Source: a virus (taxonomy: Duplodnaviria; Heunggongvirae; Uroviricota; Caudoviricetes). From it: 64,000 nucleotides of DNA. Numbering within the stretch: position 1 is the first letter of the stretch; each line of letters starts with the position of its first letter. Below, piece by piece: positions 14,557-64,000 of the stretch. The notes under the pieces were generated by a model. The model was given only the letters and a program-made list of their open reading frames with translations, did no database searches and had not been told where the DNA came from. The stretch lies in IMG/VR virus record IMGVR_UViG_3300027896_000022, positions 17,954-81,953 of that record, one strand, 5' to 3'. Both the position numbers and the translations under genes were made by a program.

Positions 14557-14628
14557 ACCAGGTAACAGAAATCGGACCTGCTTCATGAGATTGGAAATCT
14601 CAGGTAATAACCATTATACGATACCTGG
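14557..14628 (-). tRNA. tRNA-Gly (anticodon TCC). The cloverleaf was folded by hand. CCA is not encoded.
   Basis: Reverse complement reads ccaggta tc gtat aatggtta ttac c tgaga tttccaa tctca tgaa gcagg tccgatt tctgt tacctgg t. It has a 7-bp perfect acceptor stem, U8, A14, GG in the D-loop, U33 and A37. The T-loop is atypical. Confidence 0.45.
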
Positions 14629-24242: not shown

Positions 24243-24767
24243 ATGATTGATGAAAATTTTTTAAAGAAGATGTTTAATCTTCCGCAAGAAACCCATCCGG
24301 AAAAACTTTGGGTTTTGAAATATGTTCCTGCTGAAGCAAAAATTATTTACGACCTTGGTTGCGGATCAAAAAAGACTGTTGAAAATGCTATTGGGGTTGA
24401 TATTAAGCCAGGGTCGGACAAAGTGGCTAGTATGGATTTTTTGCCTTTTATTGAAAATCAGACGGTTGACATTGTTGTTTTTCGGCATTCTTTGGAACAC
24501 ATGCTTGATCCGGTGAAGACCCTGAAAGAATGGTGGCGAATTTTAAAGAATGATGGGAAGATAATTATTATTTTGCCTGATTCTACCGTTTTGAATACGA
24601 TGAATATAGCGATTAGCAGAGGACAGCATTTGCATGCTTATACGCCAGATAGTTTTAAATCTTTAATTTCTTTATTTCCAGAATTCTATTTGGAAAAAAT
24701 AGAAGTAGTGATAGACGAATGGAGTTTTGAAGCAGTCTTACAAAAAAAATATGACAAAAAAAACTGA
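24243..24767 (+). CDS. Class I SAM-dependent methyltransferase
   Basis: Motif I DLGCGSKK and motif post-II VVFRHSLEHMLDP. Confidence 0.6.
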   Translation: MIDENFLKKMFNLPQETHPEKLWVLKYVPAEAKIIYDLGCGSKKTVENAIGVDIKPGSDKVASMDFLPFIENQTVDIVVFRHSLEHMLDPVKTLKEWWRILKNDGKIIIILPDSTVLNTMNIAISRGQHLHAYTPDSFKSLISLFPEFYLEKIEVVIDEWSFEAVLQKKYDKKN

Positions 24768-27693
24768 ATTATGTAATTTGGCGTTTAAATATCATTCTGA
24801 CAAATGCCCGGCCTTGCTGCATGGCTACACCCCTTTTTATCACGAATTATTGAAAGACAAGAGGAATGATGTCAAGAAAGTGCTGGAAATAGGAATTGGC
24901 TGCCCTGAGACAATGGAAATTATTAAGGGATATAAAACCGGTGCCAGTTTGTTTATGTGGCGGGATTATTTTCCTAATGCCGAAATATTCGGGGTTGATA
25001 TTTTGGATTCAGCTTTAGTGAATGGGAACAGAATCAAATCTTTTAAGTGCGATCAAAGCAACAATACGGATCTTATTTCCTTGAAAGAAAAGATTGGCAA
25101 TGATTTTGATTTAATCGTTGATGATGGTTCTCACAAAGCTGAAGATCAGGTTTTTTCATTAATTTTTTTATTTCCTTGTGTCAAGGAAGGCGGAATCTAC
25201 GTGATTGAAGATATTAAAGACCTTGATAAATTAGTCGAATTTTTAAAGATAAATAATTATAATTATGAAGTGAAATTGCCGCCTAATCCGGTTAGTATTT
25301 ATGACAGAATGATAATAATAAAAAAAGAAGAAAAAAAGAAAATCACTTTGGCAATGACTTCCTGGCCTAAGAGCAAGGAAAGGATTGAGTATATTCGCCG
25401 GACAATTGAATCATTGGAAAAAAATCTTATTGTTCCAGGATTTGAAATAAAAAAAATATTGTCTTGCGAATCAGATCAGGTGTCTGAGGAAAACATAAAG
25501 AAAGTTGAATCTTTAGGATGGCCGGTTGTTTGGCGCCATGCCGCCCCCAGTCTGGGGATGCATTTTAATGATTTGTTTGGCTCATTGACGGGGATAGTAA
25601 TGCTGGTGGAAGACGATTGCTATTTGAGCATGCCGTTGAATATCACGCCGGGGATTGAACTTATTGAAAGCGGGCAGGAAGAAGTGGTTCGTTATTGGAC
25701 TTGCAATAATAATTTGCTGGTGAAAGAAGGCGTGCATTTTACTTACAAGGGGGATACTTTTGTCCATTTGGGCGAGTGCTTGCCAAATCAGTTTGTTGAT
25801 CGCCAGCTGTATTCTGACCGCCCTTTTTTGACTGACGTGAAGTTATGGAAAAGAATAGGCCAGTATAAGTCTTTTTCCCAGCATGAATTTGATATGGATT
25901 GGCGGTTTAAGGAATTTAAAGTTCAAGTTGCCGTCAGGCTTCCTTCCGTGTTTTGGCACATTGGAATAGATACTTTGTATAAAGGAAAAATATGGCCTGA
26001 TACTTATGATGTTTCAAAAAATACTATCGAAGGGATGATGTTGGATAATGAATTGCTCTGGCTTTTTAATACTGCGTTAGGGATGAATAGTTTCCTGGAA
26101 ATTGGTTCATGGATGGGGCGAAGCACTCACGCGATATTATCCGGTTGCCGGGGGAAAGTTCATTCGGTAGATCATTTTTTGGGTTCGGCTGATCCGATTG
26201 AAACTGGCAACAGAGATGTTTTTCCGCAATTTTTTAAGAATGTTGGTGCTTTTAATAATTTGATTATTCATAAAAAGTCAAGCCTGGAAGCGGCAAAAGA
26301 GTTTGAGGATGGTTCGCTTGATTGCGTGTTTATTGACGGCGGGCATCAATATCATGAAGTTGTTGAAGATATTAGGGCGTGGAAGCCGAAGGCCAGGAAG
26401 ATCCTTTGCGGCCATGATTATCAATCCGGCCCGGTCAGAAAATCGGTGGCTGACGAGCTTGGTGAAGTAAAGGTCTATGAAAGAATTTGGTGGGTGGAAC
26501 TGGAAAAGGAACCTGATGAAGAATTGCTGCCTGGTGTTTCTATTGTTATTCCGAATTTGGGCCGTCCAGAGAAATTAAAGGCTTGTCTTGAAGCCATTAA
26601 AAAAAATGCCGGTTATCCTGTGGACAAACATGAAGTGATAGTTCAGGATGATGATTTTAAAGATAGGCAAGGGGCCCCGAAAACCTTGATGGCTGGGGTT
26701 GCCAAGGCCAAGCATGATTTGATTATGTTTTTGGGGAACGACACTATTCCGAAAAAGTTTTTCTTATTGGAAGCGGTGAAGAAAATGTTGGAAGTCTTTC
26801 CTGACCAAGATGGTTTGGTCGGGTTGAATGATGAATTTTGGAATGGCGACCTGTCGGCTCATTGGCTGGTAAGCAAGAAGATTTTGAATAAATATTTTTG
26901 CACTGATTATCACCATATTTGCTGCGACAATGAATTGGTGGAAAGATGCAAATTGATGGGAAAATATACTTGGGCGGAAAGGGCGAAAATATATCATGAT
27001 CATCCTGAGGCTACGGGGAAGTCAGATGAAGTATACGCTTTGGGTTATGAAAAGAAAAAATGGGATGAAGATTTTGCCTTATGGAAGCAAAGAAGCGAAA
27101 AGCTTGGCTTTCCGATGAGGCATTATAGCAAGAAAGAAGTTATTCTTGGCGGCTTTACCCGTTATGACGTTAATTTAAAGCCTCGGATTATGAGCTTGGA
27201 TTGGTGCAAGAATATTGAAGATTATAAAGTTTTAAATGTAGGCGTTGGTGATGGTTCGGGTGGCCTTGCCAAGCAGCTTCCTATTTTAAAGTTTAAGCAG
27301 CTTAATCATTTGGATGTTGAAGAAAGTTATTTTTCTGCGGCTAAAAAATTAAAATGGGCGACAGAGAAAGTGAACTTTATTGCCGGAGATATCAGGGACT
27401 TTGACTTTAGCGATTATGATTTGGTTTTTTTGTTTGATATCTTAGAGCATTTGCCCAAGGAAGATAGTTTGAAGATTATTGAAAAATTGAAGAGAGCGAT
27501 CATTTTTATTCCGTTGGAAAAACATTTTAGGAAGAATCTTTGGGGCGTAAAAGCCCAGGATCATTTGTCTCTTTGGACTGAAGAAGATTTTAAGTCCAGG
27601 GGATTTAAGACTGAGATACTGCCTAATTTTCATCAGAATGAATTGAATGAGAAATTTCATGCCCTTTGGGCGACAAAATATGCCAAGCAATAA
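24727..27693 (+). CDS. 988-aa multidomain enzyme. It contains an O-methyltransferase-like domain (TylF/CmcI family), a second MTase of the same family, a GT2-like glycosyltransferase segment, and a C-terminal class I MTase.
   Basis: Key segments are VLEIGIGCPETM...DDGSHK; LEIGSWMGRSTHAILSGC...FIDGGHQYHEV...CGHDY; VSIVIPNLGRPEKLKACLEAI...VIVQDDD; and LNVGVGDGSG...LVFLFDILEHL. Confidence 0.55.
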   Translation: MKQSYKKNMTKKTELCNLAFKYHSDKCPALLHGYTPFYHELLKDKRNDVKKVLEIGIGCPETMEIIKGYKTGASLFMWRDYFPNAEIFGVDILDSALVNGNRIKSFKCDQSNNTDLISLKEKIGNDFDLIVDDGSHKAEDQVFSLIFLFPCVKEGGIYVIEDIKDLDKLVEFLKINNYNYEVKLPPNPVSIYDRMIIIKKEEKKKITLAMTSWPKSKERIEYIRRTIESLEKNLIVPGFEIKKILSCESDQVSEENIKKVESLGWPVVWRHAAPSLGMHFNDLFGSLTGIVMLVEDDCYLSMPLNITPGIELIESGQEEVVRYWTCNNNLLVKEGVHFTYKGDTFVHLGECLPNQFVDRQLYSDRPFLTDVKLWKRIGQYKSFSQHEFDMDWRFKEFKVQVAVRLPSVFWHIGIDTLYKGKIWPDTYDVSKNTIEGMMLDNELLWLFNTALGMNSFLEIGSWMGRSTHAILSGCRGKVHSVDHFLGSADPIETGNRDVFPQFFKNVGAFNNLIIHKKSSLEAAKEFEDGSLDCVFIDGGHQYHEVVEDIRAWKPKARKILCGHDYQSGPVRKSVADELGEVKVYERIWWVELEKEPDEELLPGVSIVIPNLGRPEKLKACLEAIKKNAGYPVDKHEVIVQDDDFKDRQGAPKTLMAGVAKAKHDLIMFLGNDTIPKKFFLLEAVKKMLEVFPDQDGLVGLNDEFWNGDLSAHWLVSKKILNKYFCTDYHHICCDNELVERCKLMGKYTWAERAKIYHDHPEATGKSDEVYALGYEKKKWDEDFALWKQRSEKLGFPMRHYSKKEVILGGFTRYDVNLKPRIMSLDWCKNIEDYKVLNVGVGDGSGGLAKQLPILKFKQLNHLDVEESYFSAAKKLKWATEKVNFIAGDIRDFDFSDYDLVFLFDILEHLPKEDSLKIIEKLKRAIIFIPLEKHFRKNLWGVKAQDHLSLWTEEDFKSRGFKTEILPNFHQNELNEKFHALWATKYAKQ

Positions 27694-28297
27694 AGAAATA
27701 TTTACCGCTTATTATTTGGAAAATCTTTGGGGTGATCCAATGTCTGTTTCTGGCCCGAGTTCGACTGTTGAGCATACGAGAGAGACTAGAAATATTATTA
27801 GTGTTTTAATTTGTTCATTAAAGATTAAGAAAATATTGGATGCGCCTTGCGGGGATTATAATTGGTTTAGGTTTGTGCATAAAAATAGTTCTGTTTCTTA
27901 TCTTGGGGCGGATATAGTTGAGCCGCTGATTGAAAAAAATAATATTTGGTATGGTGATTATAATACCAAATTTATCAAGCTGGATATTCTTGAAGACGTT
28001 TTGCCAAAGGCAGATTTGCTGATTTGCCGCGAATGTTTGCAGCATTTGCCGATGAAAGATTGTTTTAAGTTCTTTGAGAATTTTAAGAAAAGCGAGATAA
28101 AATATCTTTTAATAACTTCTTGGGACAGTGAAAAGAATGAAGATACGGTTGTAGGGGGGTTTAGAAGATTGGATTTATTAAAAAAACCTTTTGACTTTGA
28201 AGCACCGCTGGGGTCTTTTAAAGAATGGTCATGGCCGGGTCAGTCTGAGAAACGGCTGATTCTTTGGGAAAGAAAAAAAATGTTTAAAAAAATATGA
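27647..28297 (+). CDS. Class I SAM-dependent methyltransferase
   Basis: Contains LDAPCGDYNW...LLICRECLQHLP. It overlaps the upstream gene, which suggests coupling. Confidence 0.5.
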   Translation: MRNFMPFGRQNMPSNKEIFTAYYLENLWGDPMSVSGPSSTVEHTRETRNIISVLICSLKIKKILDAPCGDYNWFRFVHKNSSVSYLGADIVEPLIEKNNIWYGDYNTKFIKLDILEDVLPKADLLICRECLQHLPMKDCFKFFENFKKSEIKYLLITSWDSEKNEDTVVGGFRRLDLLKKPFDFEAPLGSFKEWSWPGQSEKRLILWERKKMFKKI

Positions 28298-29028
28298 GCA
28301 TTCCTAAAAATATTATGACAGTGTGGCTGACTTTTGATAATGGGCCTTTGCCGCCGCTGATTAAAAGATGCATTGAAAGCCAGAAGCTTCCGGGTTATAC
28401 ACAGAAAGTGATTACCTTGGAGAATTGCTATAAAGGTTCAAAGTATGTTAATAAGGCCTTAGAGAAAGCCAAGGCTTTACATGATGCCGGGAAGCCCATT
28501 ACAGGGCCTTGGGATAATCCTTTGACCTGGATAGTCAAGGCTTCTGATTGGCTTCGCTGTTATCATATCTGCGAGGAAGGCGGGATTTACCTTGATGCGG
28601 ATATGGAAGTTATTCCAGGGAAGAACTTTGATGATTTGCTGGATTGCCGGTTCTTTACGGAAATAGAAGCTTTCGGTATGCCGGCTAATTCTGCCTTTGG
28701 ATCGGAAGCGGGCCATCCTTTTTTAAAAGAATATCTTCCTAGAATTGAAGAGAATTTTTGTGGGGACGGGATAATGGTATTTGAACCGGGGGCCAGAGCG
28801 TTTGCCGATTTGATGTGGATTTATGACAAGGCCAAAAATGGGATAAAGATTTTTGATACTTCCATGTTTTTTCCTTATACTCATGGCAAAGAAATAATTA
28901 AAGTCACGCCGCAGACCAAGGTTTATCATCATTATGTCAATTCCTGGTGTGATGACCGGTGCAAGAAAAAGCTGGGGACAGAGTATGAAACCAAGGATTT
29001 TACGGAAATATTTAAAGGTAAAATATGA
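28294..29028 (+). CDS. Glycosyltransferase with a DXD sugar-binding region (GT32/Och1-like)
   Basis: Contains GGIYLDADMEVI. It has a 4-nt overlap with the upstream gene. Confidence 0.5.
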   Translation: MSIPKNIMTVWLTFDNGPLPPLIKRCIESQKLPGYTQKVITLENCYKGSKYVNKALEKAKALHDAGKPITGPWDNPLTWIVKASDWLRCYHICEEGGIYLDADMEVIPGKNFDDLLDCRFFTEIEAFGMPANSAFGSEAGHPFLKEYLPRIEENFCGDGIMVFEPGARAFADLMWIYDKAKNGIKIFDTSMFFPYTHGKEIIKVTPQTKVYHHYVNSWCDDRCKKKLGTEYETKDFTEIFKGKI

Positions 29029-29187
29029 TTAAATATTGTTTCTTAACAACTATCATCGTTGAGGTGGGCGTAAAAAATGCCTATGCGGGATAGAATTAAT
29101 CAATCTATTCTTAAGATTACATCGGTCGAGAGTCCGTCTGTGCCGAGGTTGATAACCATAAAGGCGAGCAGTGAAACATGATGGTAG

Positions 29188-29652
29188 TTGTTAGGAAATA
29201 ATTTAATTTATATGGAATATCCTGTTTTATTAAGAAAAGATAGTTTGCGTTGTAAATTGCTTGATGAGGATATTTTATATTTGAGAAAATTAAAAAAAAT
29301 AGGTTATTCTAATCAAAAAATAGCTAATATAATGAGATTATCCACTTTTACTGTTTGGTATTGGACAACTACTGGGAAAAATCGAGAATTATACTCAAAG
29401 AAAAAATACCAAAAAAATAAACCTTTTATAGATAAGGCATATCACCGACAAAAAGTTTATGAAAGCATTAAAAGAAAAAAGAAAATTCAAGGTAAAGAAT
29501 TTAAAAAATGGTTTAATGAAAGATTTGTTTTTCCTTTTTTAAAAAAGCCTGAATACATTAAAAAGAAAAAAGAATATTGGAATAAGAATAAAAAAAGACT
29601 TAACGAACAAAGAAGAAAAAAATATTGGAAAAATAAGAAAAAAATAATTTAA
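29188..29652 (+). CDS. Very basic Lys-rich protein with an N-terminal HTH-like segment
   Basis: Contains YSNQKIANIMRLSTFTVWYW, followed by KKKY/KNKKK-rich low complexity. Confidence 0.35.
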   Translation: MLGNNLIYMEYPVLLRKDSLRCKLLDEDILYLRKLKKIGYSNQKIANIMRLSTFTVWYWTTTGKNRELYSKKKYQKNKPFIDKAYHRQKVYESIKRKKKIQGKEFKKWFNERFVFPFLKKPEYIKKKKEYWNKNKKRLNEQRRKKYWKNKKKII

Positions 29653-29818
29653 TTTAAAATAAACTATGAAAAAAATTAAAAAGATTTATGCTATTTGCAA
29701 TGAATGTTCTAAACAATTATATCCTTCAGAGTGTTTTAAAAAAGGTAGAAATTCCTATTAACTGCCTTGAGTGCGGTCATTGGTTTTTTAAAGGAGTGGA
29801 TATAACTGAATAACTTAT

Positions 29819-30007
29819 ATGAAAATGATTAAAAATATAAATAAAAAAGTTAATTTTGATATTCATCCTGATGGAGATATTTTTGTTTGGAATAAAAAAA
29901 CAAAAAAATTTGAGTATATTGGCTTTATAGTAGATGAAGAAATTTGTTGTGTTAGCCCGGCTTTAAATCCAGTTGCCGACAGATTTTATAAAGCCTTAAA
30001 AAAATAA
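29819..30007 (+). CDS. Small hypothetical protein
   Basis: 62-aa ORF. Confidence 0.3.
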   Translation: MKMIKNINKKVNFDIHPDGDIFVWNKKTKKFEYIGFIVDEEICCVSPALNPVADRFYKALKK

Positions 30008-30014
30008 TTTCTAT

Positions 30015-30236
30015 ATGCAAGACAAAATAAAGGATATTCCTATGGGAATAAGTCAATGGAAAGAATATGGAAAGAAATATCAATATTGGGATTATTTTTT
30101 AGAAGAAATTGAAGAAGAAATATTATATTGGATTAATGATTGGAAAGCAGAAGGTCAGCCATATGGATTAATAGGATTAAAAAGAAAGATAAAAAAGATT
30201 TTTAAAAAACATCTATTATGGAAAATGAAGAAATAA
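30015..30236 (+). CDS. Small hypothetical protein
   Basis: 73-aa ORF. Confidence 0.3.
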   Translation: MQDKIKDIPMGISQWKEYGKKYQYWDYFLEEIEEEILYWINDWKAEGQPYGLIGLKRKIKKIFKKHLLWKMKK

Positions 30237-30384
30237 AAAAATGGTTAAAAAGGGAAATTGAAATTTGCGAAGAAGAAAGACAAAGTGCTATTAAAAGTGC
30301 TGAATCTGCAATAAATGTTAGAGATTATTACAGTAGAAGAGGAGAATTTCTTAATAAAATTTTAAATTTAATAGAATAATTTAT

Positions 30385-31566
30385 ATGGAAAATAATATGG
30401 AAAACGATCATTATGAAGGAAATAACATTCAGGGCTGGATGCAGCCGGTTGAGTTGGAGTTTCTCTATCAGGAGGCTAAGAAGGCCAATTCTGTCTTGGA
30501 AATCGGTTCCTGGAAGGGCAGAAGCACCCATGCGATACTTTCAGGGTGCAAAGGAATGGTCACCGCTGTGGACCATTTTAAGGGTTCAGCGCAATTAGGC
30601 GATGCCACGAATCAAATGGGCAAAGTGGAAGATGTTTATAAGCAGTTCATGGAAAATGTCGGGCATTTCAGCAATCTGAGGGTTATTAAGGCTACTTCAA
30701 GGGAAGCCAGAGTCCTTTTGAAAGATGAAAAGTTCGACATGATCTTCATTGATGGCGAACATAGTTATGAAGCGGTAAAGGAAGACATTGGCTTATGGCA
30801 GGGCAGGGCTAAAAAGATCCTTTGTGGCCATGATTATTGCCCCCCTTGGCCGCCAGTAATGCAGGCTGTTGATGAATCTATCGCCAAAGACGGGGTGGCT
30901 GGAAGTATTTGGTATAAATATGTCCAAGATGATTCTACAATTGAGCAATTTATTGATTTTATTAAAGAAAAAGAGAATTTTAGCTTTATTAAACGCGGGG
31001 ATGGAGAGGAATTCTGCATGTCCGGGATGGTAGGGCAGAATTGTGATGGACATAATTATAGCCCAATATTAGGGAAAGAATTGAAAAGAGCCTATGAATA
31101 CTTTGAATCCAGAGAGGATTGCTTTGTTCCTTTATTTCAAGATCAGAATTATTTTAATGCTCTTTTGCATCGAGTCGGCAAGAATAATGCCAAAGTGAAG
31201 GAATTTTATCAGGCGATTCGGGAAGACGGGCGTAAAAAGTTCTTTGTTGGCCCAGAAAGGCTGAAAATAGTGGCTAAGATATTAAAGGCTAAGCATATAA
31301 TTATTCCGGAAAAGAATGCTTTTGAGGAATATGGCGAGATTTCTGCCAAATTGAAGAAAGAAATTGGCAAAGACAAGGATGTCATAGTTTTGTTCAGCGC
31401 TGGAATGCCGGCCAAGGTTTTAATTGCGGAATGCCTAGAGAAAGACAATGGTATTACTTGCCTGGATTTGGGTTCTGCCTTTGATTCCTTGATCAAAGAA
31501 TCAAGAACTAATCAGATGCCAAGGGCCCAGATACTGGAATTGTATGCCGATTGGATTATGGAATAA
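30385..31566 (+). CDS. TylF/CmcI-family SAM-dependent methyltransferase. It is a paralog of the central domain of the 988-aa protein and has an unknown C-terminal domain.
   Basis: LEIGSWKGRSTHAILSGCKG...IFIDGEHSYEAV...CGHDY is nearly colinear with residues of ORF 24727-27693. Confidence 0.55.
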   Translation: MENNMENDHYEGNNIQGWMQPVELEFLYQEAKKANSVLEIGSWKGRSTHAILSGCKGMVTAVDHFKGSAQLGDATNQMGKVEDVYKQFMENVGHFSNLRVIKATSREARVLLKDEKFDMIFIDGEHSYEAVKEDIGLWQGRAKKILCGHDYCPPWPPVMQAVDESIAKDGVAGSIWYKYVQDDSTIEQFIDFIKEKENFSFIKRGDGEEFCMSGMVGQNCDGHNYSPILGKELKRAYEYFESREDCFVPLFQDQNYFNALLHRVGKNNAKVKEFYQAIREDGRKKFFVGPERLKIVAKILKAKHIIIPEKNAFEEYGEISAKLKKEIGKDKDVIVLFSAGMPAKVLIAECLEKDNGITCLDLGSAFDSLIKESRTNQMPRAQILELYADWIME

Positions 31567-31606: not shown

Positions 31607-32407
31607 ATGAATGAAACAAATAAGAAAATAGCAAGCTTGATTGTTTGGGTGTTGGTGGCAATAGTTATTTTGATTCTTTTTTTCAGTTCGATTGCTATTG
31701 TCAATGCCGGTGAAAGGGGTGTCGTAATGAATTGGGGCGCTGTTTCGCAGGATGTGAAAGGCGAAGGATTCCATTGGCTTATTCCCATTAAGCAGACGAT
31801 GAAAATTGTGGATGTGAAGAATATCAAGATTGAAACTAAAACCCAGTCTTATTCCAAAGACATCCAGACGGTTGATGTTTCGCTGGCTTTAAATTACAAC
31901 GTCAAGCCGGGTTTGGCCGCCAAGATTTATCAGGAAGTGGGGACCAGCTATCAGGCGACCATTATCGATCCGGCCATCCAGGAAAGCGTCAAAGCGGCGG
32001 TAGCTCTATTTACGGCCCAGGAATTAATTGAACAGCGTCCAAAAGTCAAGGATGCCATTACTTTGGAATTAACTAACAGGCTCTCCAATTACTTTGTGGT
32101 CAGCCAGTTTTCCATTACGGATTTCTCTTTTTCTAATGAATATGAAAAGGCCGTGGAAGCCAAGCAGGTAGCCCAGCAAAAGGCCTTGGAGCAGGAGAAT
32201 ATCACTAAGCAGGTGGAAGAGCAGGCCAAGCAGACAGTGGCTTCGGCGACCGCCCAGGCTAAAGCCATCCAAATACAGGCAGAAGCAGTCACCCAGCAAG
32301 GCGGGGCTGATTATGTAAAACTTCAAGCGATTCAAAAATGGTCAGGTATTCTGCCAACTACGATGGTTCCTGGAGGTGCTTTACCATTTATAAATTTAAC
32401 CTATTAA
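31607..32407 (+). CDS. SPFH/Band-7 (prohibitin/HflC-like) membrane protein
   Basis: N-terminal TM helix, then MNWGAVSQDVKGEGFHWLIPI...VDVKNIKIET and a Gln/Ala-rich coiled coil. Confidence 0.6.
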   Translation: MNETNKKIASLIVWVLVAIVILILFFSSIAIVNAGERGVVMNWGAVSQDVKGEGFHWLIPIKQTMKIVDVKNIKIETKTQSYSKDIQTVDVSLALNYNVKPGLAAKIYQEVGTSYQATIIDPAIQESVKAAVALFTAQELIEQRPKVKDAITLELTNRLSNYFVVSQFSITDFSFSNEYEKAVEAKQVAQQKALEQENITKQVEEQAKQTVASATAQAKAIQIQAEAVTQQGGADYVKLQAIQKWSGILPTTMVPGGALPFINLTY

Positions 32408-32408
32408 A

Positions 32409-32870
32409 ATGAGTATCCCTTGGTTAAAAAAATATAATTTTAAGAAAGGTAAAAATCATCGTGGATGGAAAGGTGGAAGGATAAAAAATCATAATGGTTA
32501 TATTTGGGTTTATCTTCCATCTCATCCTTTAGCAAGGAAAAGGTCAAGAAAAGGATATGTCTTAGAACACAGATTGGTAATGTGCAAAAAACTTGGTAGA
32601 ATTATTAAAAGCAAAGAGATTGTTCATCATTTAAATGGTGTAAGAGATGACAATCGCCCAGAAAACCTTGTTTTAACATCTACTTCTAAACATATTGCTG
32701 GACATAATGCAAAAAGAGTTTGGAAAAAAGAAAGTAAATTAAAGCAAACTATAAAAGCGTCTTTATTTGAAAGAGATGCTAATGGCAGATTTCTTAAATA
32801 TCCAAATGGCGTTTTGCCCTCTACAATGGTTCCGGGAAGCTCAGTGCCGTTTCTTGATTTGAAGTATTAA
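32409..32870 (+). CDS. HNH endonuclease. Its last ~19 codons duplicate the C-terminus of the prohibitin gene.
   Basis: HNH motif VHHLNGVRDDNRPENL...HIAGH. The C-terminus VLPSTMVPGSSVPFLDLKY matches the prohibitin tail ILPTTMVPGGALPFINLTY. Confidence 0.65.
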   Translation: MSIPWLKKYNFKKGKNHRGWKGGRIKNHNGYIWVYLPSHPLARKRSRKGYVLEHRLVMCKKLGRIIKSKEIVHHLNGVRDDNRPENLVLTSTSKHIAGHNAKRVWKKESKLKQTIKASLFERDANGRFLKYPNGVLPSTMVPGSSVPFLDLKY

Positions 32871-35868: not shown

Positions 35869-36960
35869 TTATACTATAGTTGGTTGATAATCTTTATCGA
35901 TGATGTCGTTGGCATGGATTGTCTTGGCTTCTTTCAAGGCATCCAGCAACGAGATCCTGATTGATTCCAGCGTCAGATCGATGTCCTTTTCGGAAATGGT
36001 TTCTATCTGATATTCGTTGTAGAGCATATCGAAGAAGCTATCCAGCGTTCCGAAGACCTCTTCGTTCTTGTCTTCTAGCGCCATTTCCAATTCGGTTGGC
36101 TCGTCTTCCGGACCTTCATTAATGACGTTCTTTTCATATCTCTTGCCATGCTGATTAGCTGGCTTCCATTTGTAATGGATATATTCGCCATATTTATCTT
36201 CCTTGTAATCATAATCCCATGCCGGGAAACAGGTTGCTTTAACTTCTTTCTTTTCCACTTCGGCAAATGGCATCTTTTCTTTCTTCAATTTCATTTCTTC
36301 ATCCAGCTTGCAGCTGTATAAAGTGTTGGCTTCTATTTCGCTTCCTTGCCCGGTTGAGGACAGGAACAGTTTGCCTCTGGTCTTGGCCATGTTCAGCGGA
36401 TTGGTGTTGCGGCCGAAGAACAGCTTGCTGATCTTCTCGGTTTCACGATTGATTTGCACGCAGATGAAAGCGGCAGAGCCTTCGATATTGACCTTGTCTG
36501 ATTGCTTCTCGATGAAGCGGGCCAGCTCGATGGTGAAGCATTCGCTGTCGTTGTATTTGCTTTTGTCGGTGTATTCGGTAGCGTAGGCGAATCCCAGTTT
36601 TTCATGGGCTTCTTTCAGCTTGTTATCGTTTTGAATGATGCCGTTGTGCACTACCAGATATTTATATTTTAAAGAACCGTTGTCTACTAAGATGGGATGA
36701 GTTTGAGCAAGTAGGTTGTCGGAACTGGTTGGCGTCCGATGATGGACAATCATTGCCCGGACTTTTTCCGAGTGTATGTCCCACATGAATTTGTAGCCTT
36801 CGGTTGCTCTCTCTACTTTGTATTCCATCTTGTCGTTTATTTTGATAATGCCAAAACCGTTTAGCCCTCTTTCTTTCTGATCTTCAAATTGATTGAGGAC
36901 GGCTTCGTTGACGGGATTGGCATTTTGGCCTGTATGAAAACAGCCTATGATTCCGCACAT
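35869..36960 (-). CDS. Class-II (Ntn) glutamine amidotransferase domain protein
   Basis: N-terminal MCGIIG with a Cys2 nucleophile, and VVHNGIIQN. The C-terminal ~180 aa are unknown. Confidence 0.55.
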   Translation of the reverse strand: MCGIIGCFHTGQNANPVNEAVLNQFEDQKERGLNGFGIIKINDKMEYKVERATEGYKFMWDIHSEKVRAMIVHHRTPTSSDNLLAQTHPILVDNGSLKYKYLVVHNGIIQNDNKLKEAHEKLGFAYATEYTDKSKYNDSECFTIELARFIEKQSDKVNIEGSAAFICVQINRETEKISKLFFGRNTNPLNMAKTRGKLFLSSTGQGSEIEANTLYSCKLDEEMKLKKEKMPFAEVEKKEVKATCFPAWDYDYKEDKYGEYIHYKWKPANQHGKRYEKNVINEGPEDEPTELEMALEDKNEEVFGTLDSFFDMLYNEYQIETISEKDIDLTLESIRISLLDALKEAKTIHANDIIDKDYQPTIV

Positions 36961-36998
36961 ATTTTATTGGTTAGCCGTCTATTGCTAATCGGCTTTAG

Positions 36999-41149: not shown

Positions 41150-41452
41150 ATGAATCATGTTTTTAATGGATTGAAGAAAAAAGAATTTTTTAGTGAAATT
41201 AGCCAGTTGGCCAATTTCTGTGATGAAAAGTTAGTAAGAAATGTTTATTACGCGATGATTAAAGTGATGTCCAGGGAACTGAGAAAAGGCAAAAGAGTCA
41301 AAATGCCTGATTGGGGGGATTTTTATATTCATCTTGCGGCACCCAGATTTGGGAATGATCTTAAAACTGGGATGCCAAGAAATTTTAGAATGCAAAAATT
41401 AGTTAAATTTAGGGCTGATTATAAGGTGAGGGCATATTTTAAAGCGCTTTGA
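41150..41452 (+). CDS. HU/IHF-family histone-like DNA-binding protein
   Basis: The beta-arm region GKRVKMPDWGDFYIHLAAPRFGNDLKTGMPRNFRMQKLVKFRADYKVR resembles the HU RxxRNPxTGxxIxIxAxxVxxFKxGK pattern. Confidence 0.45.
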   Translation: MNHVFNGLKKKEFFSEISQLANFCDEKLVRNVYYAMIKVMSRELRKGKRVKMPDWGDFYIHLAAPRFGNDLKTGMPRNFRMQKLVKFRADYKVRAYFKAL

Positions 41453-59472: not shown

Positions 59473-62400
59473 ATGTCTTTACCTATTTATGTTCCGATAG
59501 CAGCCCCGGGAGGTGTAGGTGGTTCTACTGGTTATACAGGTTACACTGGTTACACTGGTGATGCCGGATCAGCAACTGATACTGGTGCTACCGGTTACAC
59601 TGGTTATACTGGTTACACTGGTTACACTGGTGATCCAGGAGCGGCAACTAATACCGGTGCCACTGGCTACACTGGTTATATTGGTGATACTGGTTACACT
59701 GGTTATACTGGTGCTGGTGCTTTTACGGGCGCTACTGGTTACACTGGCTACACTGGTAGAACAGGTTATACGGGTTATACAGGTTATACAGGTGATGCTG
59801 GTAATATAGGTCACACTGGTTACACTGGCCCTACTGGTTACACTGGCTATACTGGAGAAGGAGCTTTCACTGGTTATACTGGCTACACGAGTTATACTGG
59901 TTATACCGGTTATACTGGTGATGCTGGATCGGCGACTGATACAGGTGCTACCGGCTACACTGGTGCTACTGGTTACACTGGTTACACTGGTGCTGGTGGT
60001 TTTACTGGTTATACTGGTTACACAGGTGCTGGTGCTTTTACTGGTTATACAGGTTACACTGGTCCTCTTGGTGCTACTGGTGATACGGGCAATAAAGGAA
60101 ATCAAGGTCCTACTGGTTTTACTGGTTTTACTGGTTACACTGGTTATACTGGAGTAGGTGCTTTTACTGGTTATACTGGTTATACTGGATATACTGGTTA
60201 CACAGGAGATACTGGTTATACAGGTTATACTGGTTATACTGGTGCTGGTGCTTTTACTGGTTATACTGGCTACACCGGTGAAACAGGTTATACTGGCTAC
60301 ACTGGCTATACTGGTGATACAGGTGCTGGTGCTTTTACAGGATATACTGGATATACTGGTGAAACAGGTTATACTGGCTACACTGGTTATACTGGTGATA
60401 CAGGTGCTGGTGCTTTCACGGGATATACGGGATATACTGGTGACACTGGTGATATCGGAGATCAAGGTGACACTGGTTACACTGGTTATACAGGTTACAT
60501 TGGTTACACTGGCTACACTGGTGACACTGGAGATCAAGGTGATACAGGCTACACTGGTGACACTGGAGATATTGGCTATACTGGCTACACTGGTGACACT
60601 GGAGATCAAGGTGATACAGGCTACACTGGTGACACTGGAGATATTGGCTATACTGGCTATACTGGAGACACTGGAGATAAAGGTGATACAGGCTACACTG
60701 GTGACACAGGTGACATAGGTTATACTGGTTACACTGGTTATACTGGATATGGTGACACTGGATATACAGGTGATACAGGTGATACAGGAAATCAAGGTGA
60801 TACTGGTTACACTGGTTATACTGGATATACAGGTGATACAGGTGATACAGGAAATCAAGGTGATACTGGTTACACTGGTTATACTGGATATACAGGTGAT
60901 ACAGGTGATACAGGAAATCAAGGTGATACTGGTTACACTGGTTACACTGGTTATACAGGTGACACTGGTGATACGGGAAATCAAGGTGATACTGGTTACA
61001 CTGGTTATACTGGATATACAGGTGATACAGGTGATACAGGAAATCAAGGTGATACTGGTTACACCGGTTACACTGGTTATACAGGTGACACTGGTGATAC
61101 GGGAAATCAAGGTGATACTGGTGACACCGGAGACCAAGGTGACACAGGCTATACTGGCTACACTGGCTATACTGGATATGGCGACACTGGCTATACTGGT
61201 GACACTGGAGATCAAGGTTCTACTGGTTATACTGGCTACACTGGATATGGCGACACTGGCTATACTGGTTACACTGGTTATACTGGTGATAAAGGAGATG
61301 CAGCACTTACTGGTGCCACTGGTTACACTGGCTATGTTGGTTATACTGGTGATACTGGAGATCCAGGATCAGCAACTGATACTGGTGCCACAGGCTATAC
61401 TGGTTATACTGGTGATACTGGTTACACTGGCTATATAGGTTATACAGGCTTTACGGGTTATACTGGTTATACAGGTGATACCGGTGCTGGTGCTTTTACG
61501 GGTTATACAGGTTATACAGGTCGTACAGGATATACTGGCTATACTGGTTATACAGGTGCTGGTGCTTTTACTGGTTACACAGGTTATACAGGTGATACAG
61601 GTTATACTGGTTACACTGGTCGCACTGGCTATACGGGTTATACTGGTTATACTGGTACTACGGGATATACTGGTAGAACTGGTTATACAGGTTACACGGG
61701 TTATACTGGCTATACAGGTTATACCGGTGCTGGTGCTTTTACAGGCTATACTGGTTATACTGGTACTACAGGATATACTGGATATAGTGGTTATACTGGT
61801 ACTACCGGATATACTGGTTATACTGGTCCTGGTGCTTACACTGGCTACACTGGATACACTGGATATACTGGTTATACTGGTCCTGGTGCTTATACTGGCT
61901 ATACTGGATACACTGGATATACTGGTTATACTGGTGCTGGTGCTTATACTGGTTATACTGGATATAGTGGTTACACTGGTACTACAGGATATACGGGATA
62001 TACTGGTTATACTGGTGCAGGAGCTTTTACTGGCTACACTGGTTATAGTGGTTACACTGGTCCCACAGGTTACACTGGCTACACTGGTCGCACTGGCTAC
62101 ACTGGTACTACTGGTTATACTGGTTATACAGGTACTGGTGCTTTTACTGGATATACTGGATATACTGGTGGAACAGGTTATACTGGTTATACTGGACCAG
62201 GTGCTTACACAGGTTACACGGGTTATACTGGCTATACAGGTTATACTGGAGGAACTGGTGCTGGTGCCTTTACGGGTTATACTGGTTATACTGGCTACAC
62301 TGGTTACACTGGCTATACGGGTGCTGGTGCTTACACTGGCTACACTGGTTACACGGGTTATACGGGCCGCACAGGTTATACTGGTTACACGGGTTATACA

Positions 62401-62982
62401 GGTGATGCTGGTAACGTAGGCCATACGGGTTATACAGGTTATACAGGTACTACAGGTTATACAGGCTACACTGGTATTGGAGTTACTGGCTACACTGGTT
62501 ATACTGGACCTCAAATATTAACTACTTCAACAACGACGAACTTAACTGGTTTCATAAAAGGAAACGGGTCTGTTCTTAGTGCTGATAATACAACTTATGC
62601 ACCATTAGCTTCTCCTGTTTTTACCGGGAAAGCGACTATGAGTGGGAGTGATACAATTGGTAATATTTATAATCCTGATACTGGAGCTAAAAATGTTACG
62701 ATAGATTGTTCTACCCATAATATGCATATTGTTAATGGCCATACGGATGGAACGGCTATCACCTTCTTAGTGTCTAATGCCACTAATAATCAAGTATTCA
62801 TTGTTTCTGTTCTTCAAGGATCTGGAACAGTTTCAACGATTTCAGGATGGTTTGCTACAGTTAGATGGGTAGGAGGAACTACTCCAACTCTTACGGCAAC
62901 TCTTAATAAAAGAGATACTTTTGGATTTATTAGAACAGGTACAAATACTTATGATGGGTTTATAATCGGGCAAAATTGTTAA
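59473..62982 (+). CDS. Collagen-like Gly-X-Y repeat fiber protein of 1169 aa, with a C-terminal ~155-aa non-repetitive beta-rich domain. It is a candidate tail fiber or receptor-binding protein.
   Basis: About 1000 residues are uninterrupted G-X-Y triplets, mostly G-Y-T, with G-D-T, G-A-G and G-N-Q also present. The non-collagen C-terminus begins [21 protein letters not shown]. Confidence 0.7.
60760..61140 (+). repeat. Six near-identical tandem 63-nt repeats inside the collagen-like gene, each encoding [21 protein letters not shown]
   Basis: Direct reading shows ggttacactggttatactggatatacaggtgatacaggtgatacaggaaatcaaggtgatact repeated with 0-3 substitutions. Confidence 0.8.
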
Positions 62983-63018: not shown

Positions 63019-64000
63019 ATGAATTTAAAACCAAATTTTAGTGTTTGTTTTATTGGCCGCAATGAAGGTGCGGTATTGCAAAAAGCTCTTGATTCTTTAA
63101 AAGATTTTAAAGAGAAAGGCGGTGAAATATGCCTTCTTTCTACGGGAAGCACTGATAACACTGTCCAAATAGCCAAAGATTTTGGATGTAAAACTGAAGA
63201 AGTTGGTTCTAAGTTCATGATGACATTGACGAAAGAGCAGGCAGAAGGGATCAATAAGACATTTTTAGTTGAAGAGGAAGAACCGATAGTAAAAGAAGGC
63301 GGAAAGTTGTTTGATTTTGCTTCAGCCAGAAATTATTGTGCTGATAATTTGGCTACAAACGATATGGTGGCCTGGCTGGATTGCGATGAGGCTTATACGG
63401 CACTTAATGTAGAGGCAATTTGCAAGCTTATTGATGAAGGTATTGAACAATTTGAATATCAATTTGTCTTTTCACACGATTGGGCGAATAATCCGCTTTT
63501 GCAATTTGTTCAAAGCAAATTTTACAATAAGAAAAAGATGAAATGGACAGGAGTTGTCCATGAAGTGATAAGTGGCGGTGGAAAAAGGCAATATTTGACA
63601 GAAGATGTGTTAAAAAATGAACATTGGCAAAATGGCGGGACAAATAGGGCCGGTTATCTTGTAGGTTTGGCATTGGATTGTTATGAAAATCAAGGGAAAG
63701 ACAGACAAAGTCATTATTTTGCCCGTGAATTGATGTGGCATGATAGGCCCAAGTCTGCTATCAAGGAATTTGAACGTTATTTAAAAATATCTTGGTGGAA
63801 ACCAGAAAGAAGCCAATCGATGGTTTACATTGGTGATTGTTATAAGAAGTTAGGGGAACCAGAAAAGGCTGTGGAATGGTATCATAAGGCTTTTCAAGAA
63901 GAATCTGCCCGCAGAGAGCCGTTGATTAAATTGGCTGAATATTATAATACCAAAAAAGACTTGCAAAGAATCATTTGTTATTGTAAAGCGGCCTTGGAAA
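63019..64000 (+). CDS. Family-2 glycosyltransferase with C-terminal TPR-like region. It is partial and continues beyond the window.
   Basis: The ATG at 63019 opens a frame that runs to the window end. The N-terminal SVCFIGRNEGAVLQKALDSL...LSTGSTDNT is a GT2 signature and DCDE is DXD-like. It is absent from the ORF track because no stop falls within the window. Confidence 0.55.
   Translation, partial: MNLKPNFSVCFIGRNEGAVLQKALDSLKDFKEKGGEICLLSTGSTDNTVQIAKDFGCKTEEVGSKFMMTLTKEQAEGINKTFLVEEEEPIVKEGGKLFDFASARNYCADNLATNDMVAWLDCDEAYTALNVEAICKLIDEGIEQFEYQFVFSHDWANNPLLQFVQSKFYNKKKMKWTGVVHEVISGGGKRQYLTEDVLKNEHWQNGGTNRAGYLVGLALDCYENQGKDRQSHYFARELMWHDRPKSAIKEFERYLKISWWKPERSQSMVYIGDCYKKLGEPEKAVEWYHKAFQEESARREPLIKLAEYYNTKKDLQRIICYCKAALE

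What the first reader, a model, noticed from the sequence alone, without database searches (positions are those of the whole stretch)
24243..31566. Operon-like cluster of glycosyltransferases and multiple SAM-dependent methyltransferases, in the same genome as a Thr-rich collagen-like fiber and a GT2 gene after the fiber gene
The 988-aa multidomain protein holds two TylF/CmcI-type MTase domains, a GT2-like segment and a class I MTase. The cluster also carries two stand-alone MTases, a DXD GT32-like transferase, and a paralogous MTase (30385-31566). Overlapping stop/start codons indicate coupled expression. A further GT2+TPR gene at 63019 follows the Gly-Tyr-Thr repeat fiber gene. This points to synthesis of a methylated glycan, possibly decorating the collagen-like fiber (O-glycosylation of Thr) or modifying the host surface.
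Basis: partly seen in the sequence, partly recalled or inferred. Interest (0 to 1): 0.65.

Follow-up and report, generated by a model that had tools for sequence, protein, structure and literature searches.

The report
Phage enzymes that sugar-coat collagen-like fibres
An uncultured tailed phage carries about a dozen sugar-adding and sugar-methylating enzyme domains that most likely decorate its own collagen-like (Gly-Tyr-Thr repeat) fibres with methylated sugars; this kind of virion modification is so far shown in phages only for mycobacteriophages.

Summary
Window 24243-31566 encodes five same-strand enzymes, three junctions with overlapping stop/start codons, and a 1.36-kb block of small unassigned ORFs.

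It has five transferase domains: a MycE/TylE-like sugar O-methyltransferase, a GT-A glycosyltransferase (missed), a MeT1-like Methyltransf_24, a GT2 and a class I methyltransferase. The "paralogous MTase" also carries a GT-D glycosyltransferase domain. No domain search points to nucleic-acid methyltransferases.

The link to the fibre comes from comparative genomics:
- The fibre-adjacent gene at 63019 is GT2-TPR-GT2, and its second GT2 is of the same type as the GT2 in the 980-aa protein.
- In other uncultured phages one 1174-1181-aa protein fuses GT2-TPR, Methyltransf_24, GT2, GT-D and the MycE-like domain. That gene lies directly beside (GYT)n collagen-like fibre genes and is followed by the GT32-like gene.
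- Among 80 viral loci carrying the Methyltransf_24 relative, GxT collagen-like ORFs occur in 6 of 12 with GT2-TPR and 2 of 68 without. They occur in 0 of 80 cellular loci.

Best reading (about 0.55): soluble cytoplasmic O-glycosylation and O-methylation of the phage's Pro-poor collagen-like fibres, analogous to Bacillus BclA. No glycan has been observed. This is a new variant of known kinds, and none of the 50,697 GenBank phage records searched holds a close relative.

The parts
24243..24767 (+). Stand-alone class I SAM methyltransferase (174 aa). Its stop overlaps the start of the 980-aa gene by 17 nt.
   Evidence: Methyltransf_11 E 9e-10. The same small-MTase-then-mega-enzyme gene pair is found in L004 (overlapping or abutting) and in L171. 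Substrate cannot be assigned.
24751..25335 (+). Domain 1 of the 980-aa protein: MycE/TylE-like sugar O-methyltransferase.
   Evidence: PDB phmmer: 3ssm (MycE) E 4.7e-23 and 8ia9 (demethylmacrocin O-MT) E 3e-21. The domain recurs in many multidomain GT/MT proteins.
25318..26025 (+). Domain 2: divergent GT-A fold glycosyltransferase with a conserved QDD motif.
26008..26520 (+). Domain 3: Methyltransf_24, MeT1-like sugar O-methyltransferase.
   Evidence: PF13578 E 6.7e-21. Profile against PDB: 6g7d E 2e-8. Foldseek top hit is 6g80, M. hassiacum MeT1.
26503..27150 (+). Domain 4: GT2 family glycosyltransferase.
   Evidence: PF00535 at 27.1 bits, cut-off 23.3. Profile against PDB: the 9jma chain, deposited as a GalNAc(5)-diNAcBac-PP-undecaprenol beta-1,3-glucosyltransferase (entry title: AvpGT), E 1.3e-9; also TarS/TarP and GalT1. 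Conserved D, ND and HxH positions. A domain of the same type forms the C-terminus of the fibre-adjacent gene.
27133..27693 (+). Domain 5: class I SAM methyltransferase, substrate unassigned.
   Evidence: Methyltransf_25 E 8.8e-9 and Methyltransf_11 E 3.2e-7. Only generic PDB matches. No homologue among the 66 relatives.
27647..28297 (+). Stand-alone class I methyltransferase (205-216 aa depending on the start codon). It overlaps both neighbouring genes.
   Evidence: phrog_3382 E 8.8e-36. Pfam hits are below threshold. Junctions read.
28294..29028 (+). GT32-like DXD glycosyltransferase (244 aa, YLDAD motif).
   Evidence: PF04488 at 27.7 bits, cut-off 23. 36% identical to the gene that directly follows the fusion enzyme in L007. 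Equivalent genes lie in L006 and L259.
29188..30380 (+). Interruption of the cluster: a basic 154-aa ORF plus three or four small ORFs, function unknown. Not shown to belong to the system.
   Evidence: No hits in Pfam, PHROGs or NCBIfam. The block is absent from the syntenic relative L004.
30385..31566 (+). Bifunctional 393-aa protein: Methyltransf_24 (aa ~13-177) plus a GT-D fold glycosyltransferase (aa ~185-393, motif RGDGEE).
   Evidence: PF13578 E 2.2e-16; PF22882 at 30.6 bits, cut-off 27. NCBIfam GT-D_rel, E 1.4e-8 (34.6 bits, below its curated cut-off of 75). PDB 4pfx GalT1 DUF1792 E 2e-4. Both halves align to P0003 at 55% and 38% identity.
59473..62982 (+). Collagen-like fibre protein (1169 aa): the proposed acceptor. 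About 1000 aa of Gly-X-Thr triplets (mostly GYT and GDT) followed by a globular C-terminal domain.
   Evidence: Translation. 302 triplets, 79% with Thr at Y, 7 with Pro at X. PHROG tail-fibre and collagen-like families. 1085 aa in another assembly of the same phage.
63019..64000 (+). GT2-TPR-GT2 glycosyltransferase, cut by the window end (586 aa in full). Proposed fibre-recognising enzyme.
   Evidence: PF00535 and TPR hits. Full gene on L168:13867-15627, with a second GT2 of the domain-4 type. 52% identical to the N-terminus of the fusion protein P0003. It is the component that tracks GxT collagen-like genes.

Best explanation
This is a phage-encoded, soluble, cytoplasmic protein-glycosylation system. 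It builds short O-methylated glycans on the phage's own collagen-like (Gly-Tyr-Thr)n fibre proteins.

The system comprises six genes: 24243-29028, 30385-31566 and 63019 onward. Together they supply six glycosyltransferase domains and six SAM methyltransferase domains.
- Glycosyltransferase domains: the two GT2 domains of the GT2-TPR-GT2 protein, GT-A and GT2 in the 980-aa protein, one GT32-like, and one GT-D.
- Methyltransferase domains: three in the 980-aa protein, one in the 393-aa protein, and the two stand-alone MTases.

Proposed sequence of events (inferred):
1. The enzymes of the 24-31 kb cluster lie downstream of the primase-helicase and RecA genes, so they are probably made before the late structural genes.
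2. The TPR-bearing GT2-TPR-GT2 enzyme, encoded immediately after the fibre gene, recognises nascent or unfolded fibre chains. It adds the first sugar(s) to Thr at the Y position of the triplets (or possibly to Tyr at X), using host nucleotide-sugars.
3. The other GT domains extend the glycan.
4. The MycE/TylE-like and MeT1-like domains O-methylate sugar hydroxyls. Fusing GT and MT domains in one polypeptide may channel these successive steps.

Likely pay-off (inferred): hydration and stabilisation of a nearly proline-free triple helix, and/or shielding of the fibre from proteases or from host recognition.

What is shown: the domain identities, the gene fusions and the fibre adjacency. What is inferred: the acceptor, the order of steps and the benefit.
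For: Enzymes act on sugars:
- Domain 1 matches MycE/TylE.
- Domain 3 matches MeT1 by sequence profile and by fold.
- Domain 4 is GT2. There is also a GT32-like DXD enzyme and a GT-D domain with a DGE motif.

One pathway:
- P0003 (1174 aa) and P0005 (1181 aa) fuse GT2-TPR (52% identical to the 63019 gene), Methyltransf_24, GT2, GT-D and the MycE-like MT into one protein.
- The 586-aa fibre-adjacent protein ends in a GT2 of the domain-4 type.

Link to the fibre:
- The fusion genes in L006 and L007 lie directly downstream of (GYT)n genes and are followed by the GT32-like gene.
- L005, L008-L010, L046, L054 and L171 also have GYT collagen-like ORFs within 10 kb.
- 8 of 9 contigs of close relatives have such ORFs, against 5 of 77 more distant viral loci (Fisher p 2e-7).
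- Among the 80 viral loci anchored on Methyltransf_24, GxT ORFs occur in 6 of 12 with GT2-TPR and 2 of 68 without (p 7e-5). They occur in 0 of 80 cellular loci.
- 13 of 119 independent GYT-repeat viral loci carry a GT2-TPR relative in their flanks.
- In this genome the GT2-TPR-GT2 gene is flanked by three GYT proteins.

Cytoplasmic and soluble: no convincing membrane segments.

Precedents:
- The collagen-like regions of BclA are densely glycosylated with GalNAc-Rha3-anthrose (PMC10050317), and anthrose is 2-O-methylated (PMC6222408).
- PBCV-1 A064R is a GT-GT-MT protein acting on the viral capsid glycan (PMC9614988).
- Mycobacteriophage capsid and tail-tube proteins are glycosylated (Freeman 2023, as cited in PMC12619734).
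Against: - No glycan has been observed. The acceptor is inferred only from gene neighbourhood and fusion.
- In this genome the main cluster lies 28 kb from the fibre gene, inside the replication/recombination region. The closest relative, L004, shows it there too. One close relative contig, L172, has no collagen-like gene in 14.6 kb.
- Most GYT-repeat loci (106 of 119) show no such enzyme in their flanks, so the fibre does not need the system.
- The phages compared are related, so the co-occurrence counts are not independent events.
- No nucleotide-sugar synthesis genes were found in the window, so the donor sugars are unknown.
- Three MTase units (the 174-aa and 216-aa proteins and domain 5) are generic class I enzymes. 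They could methylate something other than sugar.
Confidence: 0.55

Rival explanations
1. The same enzymes glycosylate other phage proteins (capsid, tail, portal-associated) or a host protein, rather than or besides the collagen-like fibres. Mycobacteriophages, for example, glycosylate capsid and tail-tube C-termini.
For: - Phage virion glycosylation is documented on capsid and tail tube (Freeman 2023, as cited in PMC12619734).
- The main cluster is not next to the fibre gene in this genome.
- TPR domains bind many kinds of protein.
- L172 carries a related mega-enzyme with no collagen-like gene nearby.
Against: - GT2-TPR tracks GxT collagen-like ORFs specifically: 6 of 12 against 2 of 68.
- The fusion genes are immediately adjacent to GYT genes in L006, L007 and L171.
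- The fibre offers hundreds of regularly spaced Thr and Tyr hydroxyls.
Confidence: 0.15
2. The enzymes remodel a host cell-surface polysaccharide (LPS O-antigen, capsule or EPS) during infection. For example, they could block superinfection or prevent progeny from being trapped on debris.
For: - The GT2, Caps_synth/GT32 and sugar-MTase families are typical of polysaccharide loci.
- JGI names several relatives as glycosyltransferases involved in cell wall biosynthesis.
- Phage GTs that change host serotype are known (PMC12619734).
Against: - There is no membrane segment, flippase, polymerase or polyprenyl-phosphate initiating transferase.
- No integrase or lysogeny module was seen among the ORFs scanned.
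- The closest relatives are viral; cellular homologues of the Methyltransf_24 domain are at most ~36% identical, apart from four MAG contigs.
- The genes lie next to fibre genes within structural modules.
Confidence: 0.12
3. The cluster hypermodifies phage DNA by glycosylating and methylating modified bases, to evade restriction. This would fit its position beside the primase-helicase and RecA genes.
For: - The cluster lies in the replication/recombination region here and in L004 and L005.
- PHROG labels phrog_2675 as 'DNA methyltransferase'.
- Phage GTs that hypermodify DNA are well known (Pyle 2024, as cited in PMC12619734).
Against: - The informative MT domains match sugar O-methyltransferases, not DNA MTases.
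- No thymidylate-synthase-like hydroxymethylase or base-modifying enzyme was found among the window ORFs scanned.
- Homologous fusion genes sit in structural modules beside fibre genes.
- TPR and GT-D domains are typical of protein-glycan systems.
Confidence: 0.05

Closest known systems
Bacillus anthracis/cereus exosporium glycoprotein BclA and its glycosylation genes
   Same: Both are trimeric collagen-like filaments built of Gly-X-Thr triplets, with sugar-modifying genes nearby. The BclA collagen-like region is densely O-glycosylated with GalNAc-Rha-Rha-Rha-anthrose (PMC10050317), and anthrose carries a 2-O-methyl group (PMC6222408).
   Different: BclA uses GPT triplets, whereas this fibre uses GYT and GDT with almost no proline. 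BclA is a bacterial spore protein, not a virion protein. No sequence relationship of the enzymes was tested. No rhamnose or anthrose synthesis genes were found here.
Chlorovirus PBCV-1 A064R (GT-GT-MT) and A061L
   Same: Both are virus-encoded, soluble, multidomain proteins that combine glycosyltransferase and sugar O-methyltransferase domains to build and methylate the glycan of a virion protein. A064R is described as one of the few enzymes with three transferase domains (PMC9614988).
   Different: A064R belongs to a eukaryotic giant virus and works on an N-linked capsid glycan. This protein has five transferase domains (MT-GT-MT-GT-MT), and relatives have other five-domain orders. Homology to A064R was not tested.
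Mycobacteriophage virion glycosylation (Che8/Corndog/Myrna type; Freeman et al. 2023)
   Same: In both cases tailed-phage-encoded glycosyltransferases modify the phage's own structural proteins in the host cytoplasm (as summarised in PMC12619734).
   Different: In mycobacteriophages the targets are the C-termini of capsid and tail-tube subunits. No collagen-like acceptor, TPR-GT or multidomain GT/MT enzymes are reported there. Among 50,697 GenBank phage records, the best matches to the two proteins tested, the GT2-TPR-GT2 and MT24+GT-D proteins, are no more than 27-32% identical.
Streptococcus parasanguinis Fap1 O-glycosylation (GalT1 = GT2 + GT-D/DUF1792)
   Same: Both pair a GT2 with a GT-D (DUF1792) domain to extend O-glycans on a repetitive Ser/Thr-rich fibrillar protein. 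PDB matches are 4pfx and 5hea.
   Different: The sequence similarity is weak (E 2e-4). The acceptor there is a serine-rich repeat adhesin, and no methyltransferases are involved.
Macrolide-sugar and mycobacterial polysaccharide O-methyltransferases (MycE/TylE; MeT1)
   Same: These are the closest solved relatives of domains 1 and 3. They methylate sugar hydroxyls. MeT1 methylates the 1-OH of 3-O-methylmannosides (PMC9883506).
   Different: Those enzymes act on small-molecule or free oligosaccharide substrates in cellular pathways. Here the domains are fused to glycosyltransferases in a phage.

Membership tests
GT2 (GT-A fold) glycosyltransferases - domain 4 of the 980-aa protein and both GT domains of the 63019 gene | Significant match to PF00535 and to solved GT2 enzymes | tested here: met
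   PF00535 at 27.1 bits, cut-off 23.3, for the 980-aa protein; 74.6 bits for the full 586-aa protein. Profile hits include 9jma at E 1.3e-9, plus TarS, TarP and SpsA.
GT2 (GT-A fold) glycosyltransferases - domain 4 of the 980-aa protein and both GT domains of the 63019 gene | Acidic nucleotide- and metal-binding motif (DXD or a variant) conserved | tested here: inconclusive
   The alignment shows invariant D50, N79-D80 and H165/H167. The motif reads ND rather than the canonical DXD. Catalytic competence cannot be judged from sequence.
GT-A fold glycosyltransferases - domain 2 (aa 190-425) | GT-A Rossmann-like fold with an acidic motif after beta-4 | tested here: met
GT-D (DUF1792) glycosyltransferases - C-terminal half of the 393-aa protein | Match to GT-D models and presence of the DXE metal-binding motif | tested here: met
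   PF22882 at 30.6 bits, cut-off 27. NCBIfam GT-D_rel E 1.4e-8, which is below its own cut-off of 75 bits. PDB 4pfx E 2e-4. RGDGEE is present and conserved as KIGDGE in P0003. That DXE is the defining motif is recalled from the GalT1/DUF1792 literature.
GT32-like (Gly_transf_sug) - 244-aa protein | PF04488 match including the DXD motif | tested here: met
   27.7 bits against a cut-off of 23. YLDAD is conserved in the L007 orthologue.
SAM/metal-dependent sugar O-methyltransferases (MycE/TylE; Methyltransf_24/MeT1) | Sequence or fold similarity to characterised sugar O-MTs | tested here: met
   3ssm E 4.7e-23 and 8ia9 E 3e-21. 6g7d E 2e-8. 6g80 (MeT1) is the top Foldseek hit.
SAM/metal-dependent sugar O-methyltransferases (MycE/TylE; Methyltransf_24/MeT1) | Methylation of a sugar hydroxyl demonstrated | not testable with these tools
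   Requires an enzyme assay or glycan analysis.
Phage virion glycosylation systems | Phage-encoded GTs together with a glycan detected on a virion protein | not testable with these tools
   The GTs are present. Glycan detection needs virions. The phage is known only from metagenomes.
BclA-type glycosylated collagen-like filaments | Long Gly-X-Thr collagen-like region with glycosylation genes nearby | tested here: met
   302 triplets, 79% with Thr at Y. The GT2-TPR-GT2 gene starts 37 nt after the fibre stop. Two more GYT genes lie downstream.
BclA-type glycosylated collagen-like filaments | Deoxyhexose (rhamnose/anthrose) biosynthesis genes linked to the locus | tested here: not met
   No nucleotide-sugar synthesis domains among the window ORFs scanned. 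About 23 kb of the genome was not examined.
Phage DNA-glycosylation/hypermodification systems | A hydroxymethylase (thymidylate-synthase family) or other base-modifying enzyme that supplies the acceptor | tested here: not met
   None among the window ORFs scanned. The 1365-aa and 1062-aa ORFs have no hits, and the rest of the genome was not examined.
Seroconverting gtrABC-type host O-antigen modification | Membrane proteins: GtrA flippase, GtrB polyprenyl-P GT and an integral-membrane GtrC | tested here: not met
   The highest 19-residue Kyte-Doolittle means are 0.4-1.9, in Rossmann-core strands. No multi-span proteins are present in the cluster.

The most novel reading that the evidence does not exclude
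These phages may use a previously undescribed class of TPR-guided protein O-glycosyltransferases that recognise Gly-Tyr-Thr collagen triplets. These would work with assembly-line mega-enzymes of up to five fused GT and MT domains. The resulting methylated Thr- (or Tyr-) linked glycans would replace hydroxyproline as the stabiliser of an almost proline-free collagen triple helix in virion fibres. If so, glycan-stabilised collagen would be a common structural solution in uncultured aquatic phages.
Probability: 0.3. Interest if true: 0.8.

Novelty: new variant of a known kind. Interest (0 to 1): 0.62.

Why it matters
If confirmed, this would extend virion glycosylation in tailed phages beyond mycobacteriophages, to a different acceptor (collagen-like fibres) and a different enzyme set.

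It would supply a family of soluble, lipid-carrier-independent protein O-glycosyltransferases and sugar methyltransferases with a simple repetitive acceptor, (GYT)n. That could be useful for glyco-engineering of recombinant bacterial collagens.

It would also give a testable explanation for how Pro-poor, Thr-rich collagen-like fibres fold and stay stable. Fibre glycans could influence host recognition, protease resistance and immune or defence evasion.

The five-transferase-domain polypeptides exceed the three-domain PBCV-1 A064R, which is described as one of the few enzymes with three transferase domains (PMC9614988).

The Methyltransf_24 module is frequent in viral metagenome contigs: at least 377 confirmed relatives in IMG/VR. 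Among 50,697 GenBank phage records, the 393-aa MT24+GT-D protein matches only two uncultured (metagenomic) phage records, at about 32% identity.

Tried and rejected
- Near-identical DNA search of the cluster against GenBank phages found nothing. TerL is at most 30% identical to any record. No cultured relative or host could be named.
- A full-length AF2 model of the 980-aa protein from a MAFFT alignment of domain-shuffled homologues was poor (mean pLDDT 55.6). Only domains 3 and 4 and part of domain 2 folded confidently. It was used only for the MeT1 and GT hits. Domains 1 and 5 were judged from sequence searches instead.
- A profile of domain 2 against PDB sequences gave nothing significant. 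The fold search settled it.
- The 174-aa MTase, the 216-aa MTase and domain 5 gave only generic class I matches, so no substrate is claimed.
- The scan of cellular genomes gave no host clue. The nearest hits are MAG contigs of mixed phyla.
- Exact look-ups of the fibre protein and of the 1365-aa protein failed, so the ~18 kb upstream of the window was not examined.
- tRNA-Gly(TCC) as an adaptation to the Gly-rich fibre was rejected. The fibre uses mainly GGT (228 of 352 Gly codons), which this tRNA does not read.
- The promoter/terminator scan was at the chance level and says nothing about operon structure.
- The Freeman et al. 2023 paper and PDB code 6G7D could not be retrieved from the library. 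The MeT1 identity was confirmed through the 6g80 description.
- The Riftia galactosyl-threonine collagen analogy rests on my own recollection only (searches gave no usable text).
Full report
**What the window is.** The window comes from an uncultured tailed phage.
- It encodes a large terminase, a portal (SU10/P22 type), an SU10-type major capsid protein, a primase-helicase, RecA, an SbcC-like nuclease and RuvC.
- The exact 980-aa protein occurs on an 87,481-bp ENA contig and on JGI and Logan contigs.
- Nothing in 50,697 GenBank phage records is close. There is no megablast hit for the cluster, and TerL is at most 30% identical to any record.

**Check of the observation.**
- Pfam, PHROG and NCBIfam confirm a 174-aa Methyltransf_11 protein and a 980-aa protein (988 aa from an upstream TTG) with Methyltransf_24, GT2 and Methyltransf_25 hits.
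- They also confirm a 216-aa methyltransferase (phrog_3382, E 8.8e-36), a 244-aa Gly_transf_sug DXD transferase, and a 393-aa protein with Methyltransf_24.
- The Methyltransf_24 domains of the 980-aa and 393-aa proteins are 48% identical.
- Three junctions overlap.
- The cluster is interrupted between 29029 and 30384 by a basic 154-aa ORF and several small ORFs with no hits. This block is absent from the syntenic relative L004.
- The fibre gene (59473-62982) has 302 Gly-X-Y triplets, 238 with Thr at Y and 172 with Tyr at X.
- The next gene (63019) is GT2 plus TPR.

**Domain-by-domain anatomy.** The 980-aa protein has five transferase domains.
- Domain 1 (aa 1-195) matches the macrolide-sugar O-methyltransferases MycE (3ssm, E 4.7e-23) and TylE (8ia9).
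- Domain 3 (aa 420-590) is Methyltransf_24. Its profile hits 6g7d at E 2e-8. The top Foldseek hit of the model is 6g80, Mycobacterium hassiacum MeT1, a sugar 1-O-methyltransferase (PMC9883506).
- Domain 4 (aa 585-800) is GT2.
- Domain 5 is a generic class I methyltransferase.

The C-terminal half of the 393-aa protein is a GT-D (DUF1792) domain with an RGDGEE motif. The full fibre-adjacent gene, recovered from the ENA contig, is 586 aa. It reads GT2, then TPR, then a second GT2 of the domain-4 type.

In total the system has six GT and six MT domains in six genes. None has a convincing membrane segment. No domain search pointed to nucleic-acid methyltransferases. The PHROG label 'DNA methyltransferase' for phrog_2675 is outweighed by the MeT1 and MycE matches.

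**Link between the cluster and the fibre.** Three lines of evidence connect them.

1. Gene fusions.
   - P0003 (1174 aa) and P0005 (1181 aa) join five domains in one chain: a GT2-TPR region 52% identical to the 63019 product, a Methyltransf_24 domain 55% identical to that of the 393-aa protein, a domain-4-type GT2, a GT-D domain 38% identical to the 393-aa C-terminus, and a MycE-like domain.
   - So the parts that this phage splits between 24-31 kb and 63 kb work as one protein elsewhere.
2. Neighbourhood.
   - In L007 and L006 the fusion gene lies directly downstream of a (GYT)n collagen-like gene. It is followed by a 198-200-aa GT that is 36% identical to the window's 244-aa GT.
   - L005, L008, L009, L010, L046, L054 and L171 also carry GYT collagen-like ORFs within a few kb.
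   - L171 repeats the small-MTase-then-mega-enzyme gene pair seen at 24243/24751.
   - In this phage the GT2-TPR-GT2 gene is followed, beyond the window end, by two more GYT proteins of 425 aa and more than 754 aa.
3. Counts.
   - 8 of 9 contigs of close relatives have a GxT collagen-like ORF, against 5 of 77 more distant viral loci that carry a Methyltransf_24 relative (p 2e-7).
   - None of 80 cellular loci has one.
   - Within the 80 viral loci, GxT ORFs occur in 6 of 12 that also have GT2-TPR and in 2 of 68 that do not (p 7e-5).
   - In the reverse direction, 13 of 119 GYT-repeat viral loci have a GT2-TPR relative in their short flanks, 8 of them at ~47-52% identity.
   - These counts are not phylogenetically independent, and most GYT genes have no such neighbour. 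The association is therefore real but not obligatory.

**Most likely mechanism (inferred).**
- Soluble enzymes use host nucleotide-sugars and SAM to O-glycosylate the collagen-like chains in the cytoplasm.
- GT2-TPR-GT2 is the best candidate for the protein-recognising and initiating enzyme. It carries the TPR array and is the component that tracks the fibre genes.
- The remaining GT domains extend the glycan, and the MycE-like and MeT1-like domains O-methylate it.
- Thr at the Y position is the obvious acceptor, by analogy with BclA. Tyr at X cannot be excluded.
- The fibre has only 7 Pro among 302 X positions, so glycans may help to hydrate and stabilise the triple helix. This idea has been advanced for BclA (PMC8968730). 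From my own recollection, it is also established for galactosyl-Thr in Riftia cuticle collagen.
- Collagen modifications in animals must precede trimerisation (PMC8968730). That fits expression of the main cluster with the replication genes, although the timing is not shown.

**Rivals.**
- Other virion or host proteins as acceptors remain possible (0.15).
- Host surface-polysaccharide remodelling (0.12) is disfavoured. Membrane components and lipid-carrier enzymes are absent, and the genes are embedded in structural modules.
- DNA hypermodification (0.05) is suggested only by position near RecA. It is contradicted by the sugar-MT matches, by the lack of a hydroxymethylase among the ORFs scanned and by the fibre-adjacent fusions. 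About 23 kb of the genome was not examined.

**Comparison with known systems.**
- It works like BclA glycosylation in Bacillus: a Gly-X-Thr filament densely O-glycosylated with a methylated terminal sugar (PMC10050317, PMC6222408).
- It resembles PBCV-1 A064R/A061L: viral GT-GT-MT plus MT acting on a capsid glycan (PMC9614988).
- It resembles mycobacteriophage virion glycosylation (Freeman 2023, via PMC12619734).
- It resembles, distantly, Fap1 glycosylation with GT2 plus GT-D.
- It is not a demonstrated member of any of these. Enzyme homology to the Bacillus or chlorovirus proteins was not tested, and no glycan is known.
- Four full-text searches found no description of glycosylated collagen-like phage fibres or of these fusion enzymes.

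**Verdict.** This is a new variant of known kinds: phage self-glycosylation and glycosylated collagen-like filaments. Its notable features are five-domain transferase polypeptides and a recurrent fibre-GT2-TPR linkage in uncultured phages. Interest is moderate to high, limited by the absence of any biochemical evidence.

Noticed in passing
window 35869-38657 (- strand); also L004 8516-11409: A phiEco32-like COOH-NH2 ligase (552 aa, PF14395, E 6.9e-13) lies next to a class II glutamine-amidotransferase-like protein (363 aa, related to the GlmS N-terminal domain, E 1.6e-14). The pair is conserved in the syntenic relative. Its substrate is unknown.
   Followed up: partly
window 59473-62982 vs L168 10573-13830: The fibre gene is length-polymorphic between assemblies of the same phage: 1169 aa in the window and 1085 aa in the ENA contig, a difference of 28 triplets. 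This could be population variation in repeat number or an assembly collapse of repeats.
   Followed up: partly
L168 16172-17449 and 18294-20555 (just beyond the window's 3' end): Two further (GYT)n collagen-like proteins (425 aa and more than 754 aa) share a conserved ~150-aa N-terminal domain. The phage therefore has at least three GYT fibre proteins around the GT2-TPR-GT2 gene.
   Followed up: partly
window 14556-14628 (- strand): A phage-encoded tRNA-Gly with anticodon TCC. The Gly-rich fibre mostly uses GGT, so the tRNA is not obviously matched to it.
   Followed up: yes
window 32409-32870 (+), 54745-55299 (+), 15996-16832 (-): Three homing-endonuclease-type genes: HNH_3 right after the SPFH gene, LAGLIDADG just upstream of the major capsid gene, and an HNH_repeat protein. 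This suggests active mobile-element traffic in the genome.
   Followed up: no
window 31607-32407 (+): An SPFH/Band 7 (stomatin-like) protein (PF01145, E 3e-35; phrog_200) lies immediately after the glycosylation cluster. It is absent from relative L004, and its role is unknown.
   Followed up: no
window 13-4110 (+) and 41536-44724 (+): Two very large ORFs (1365 aa and 1062 aa) have no Pfam or PHROG hit at all. No DNA polymerase or RNA polymerase was recognised anywhere in the window.
   Followed up: no
window 5268-5750 (-), 48553-49230 (+), 41150-41452 (+): Auxiliary genes: a peptide deformylase, a histidine phosphatase (His_Phos_1, E 3.7e-31) between terminase and portal, and an HU-type DNA-binding protein.
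   Followed up: no
loci L173, L177, L182, L191, L196, L228, L233-L235, L237, L239 (IMG/VR GVMAG contigs): Exact (GYT)4-coding repeats also occur on contigs binned as giant-virus MAGs. GYT collagen-like proteins are therefore not confined to tailed phages. None of these loci showed the enzymes in its flanks.
   Followed up: partly
window 29188-29652 (+): A very basic 154-aa ORF that looks, by eye only (no tool supports it), like a helix-turn-helix protein (LRKLKKIGYSNQKIANIMRLSTFTVWYW). Together with three or four tiny ORFs it splits the enzyme cluster. The block is missing in L004, so it may be an insertion.
   Followed up: partly
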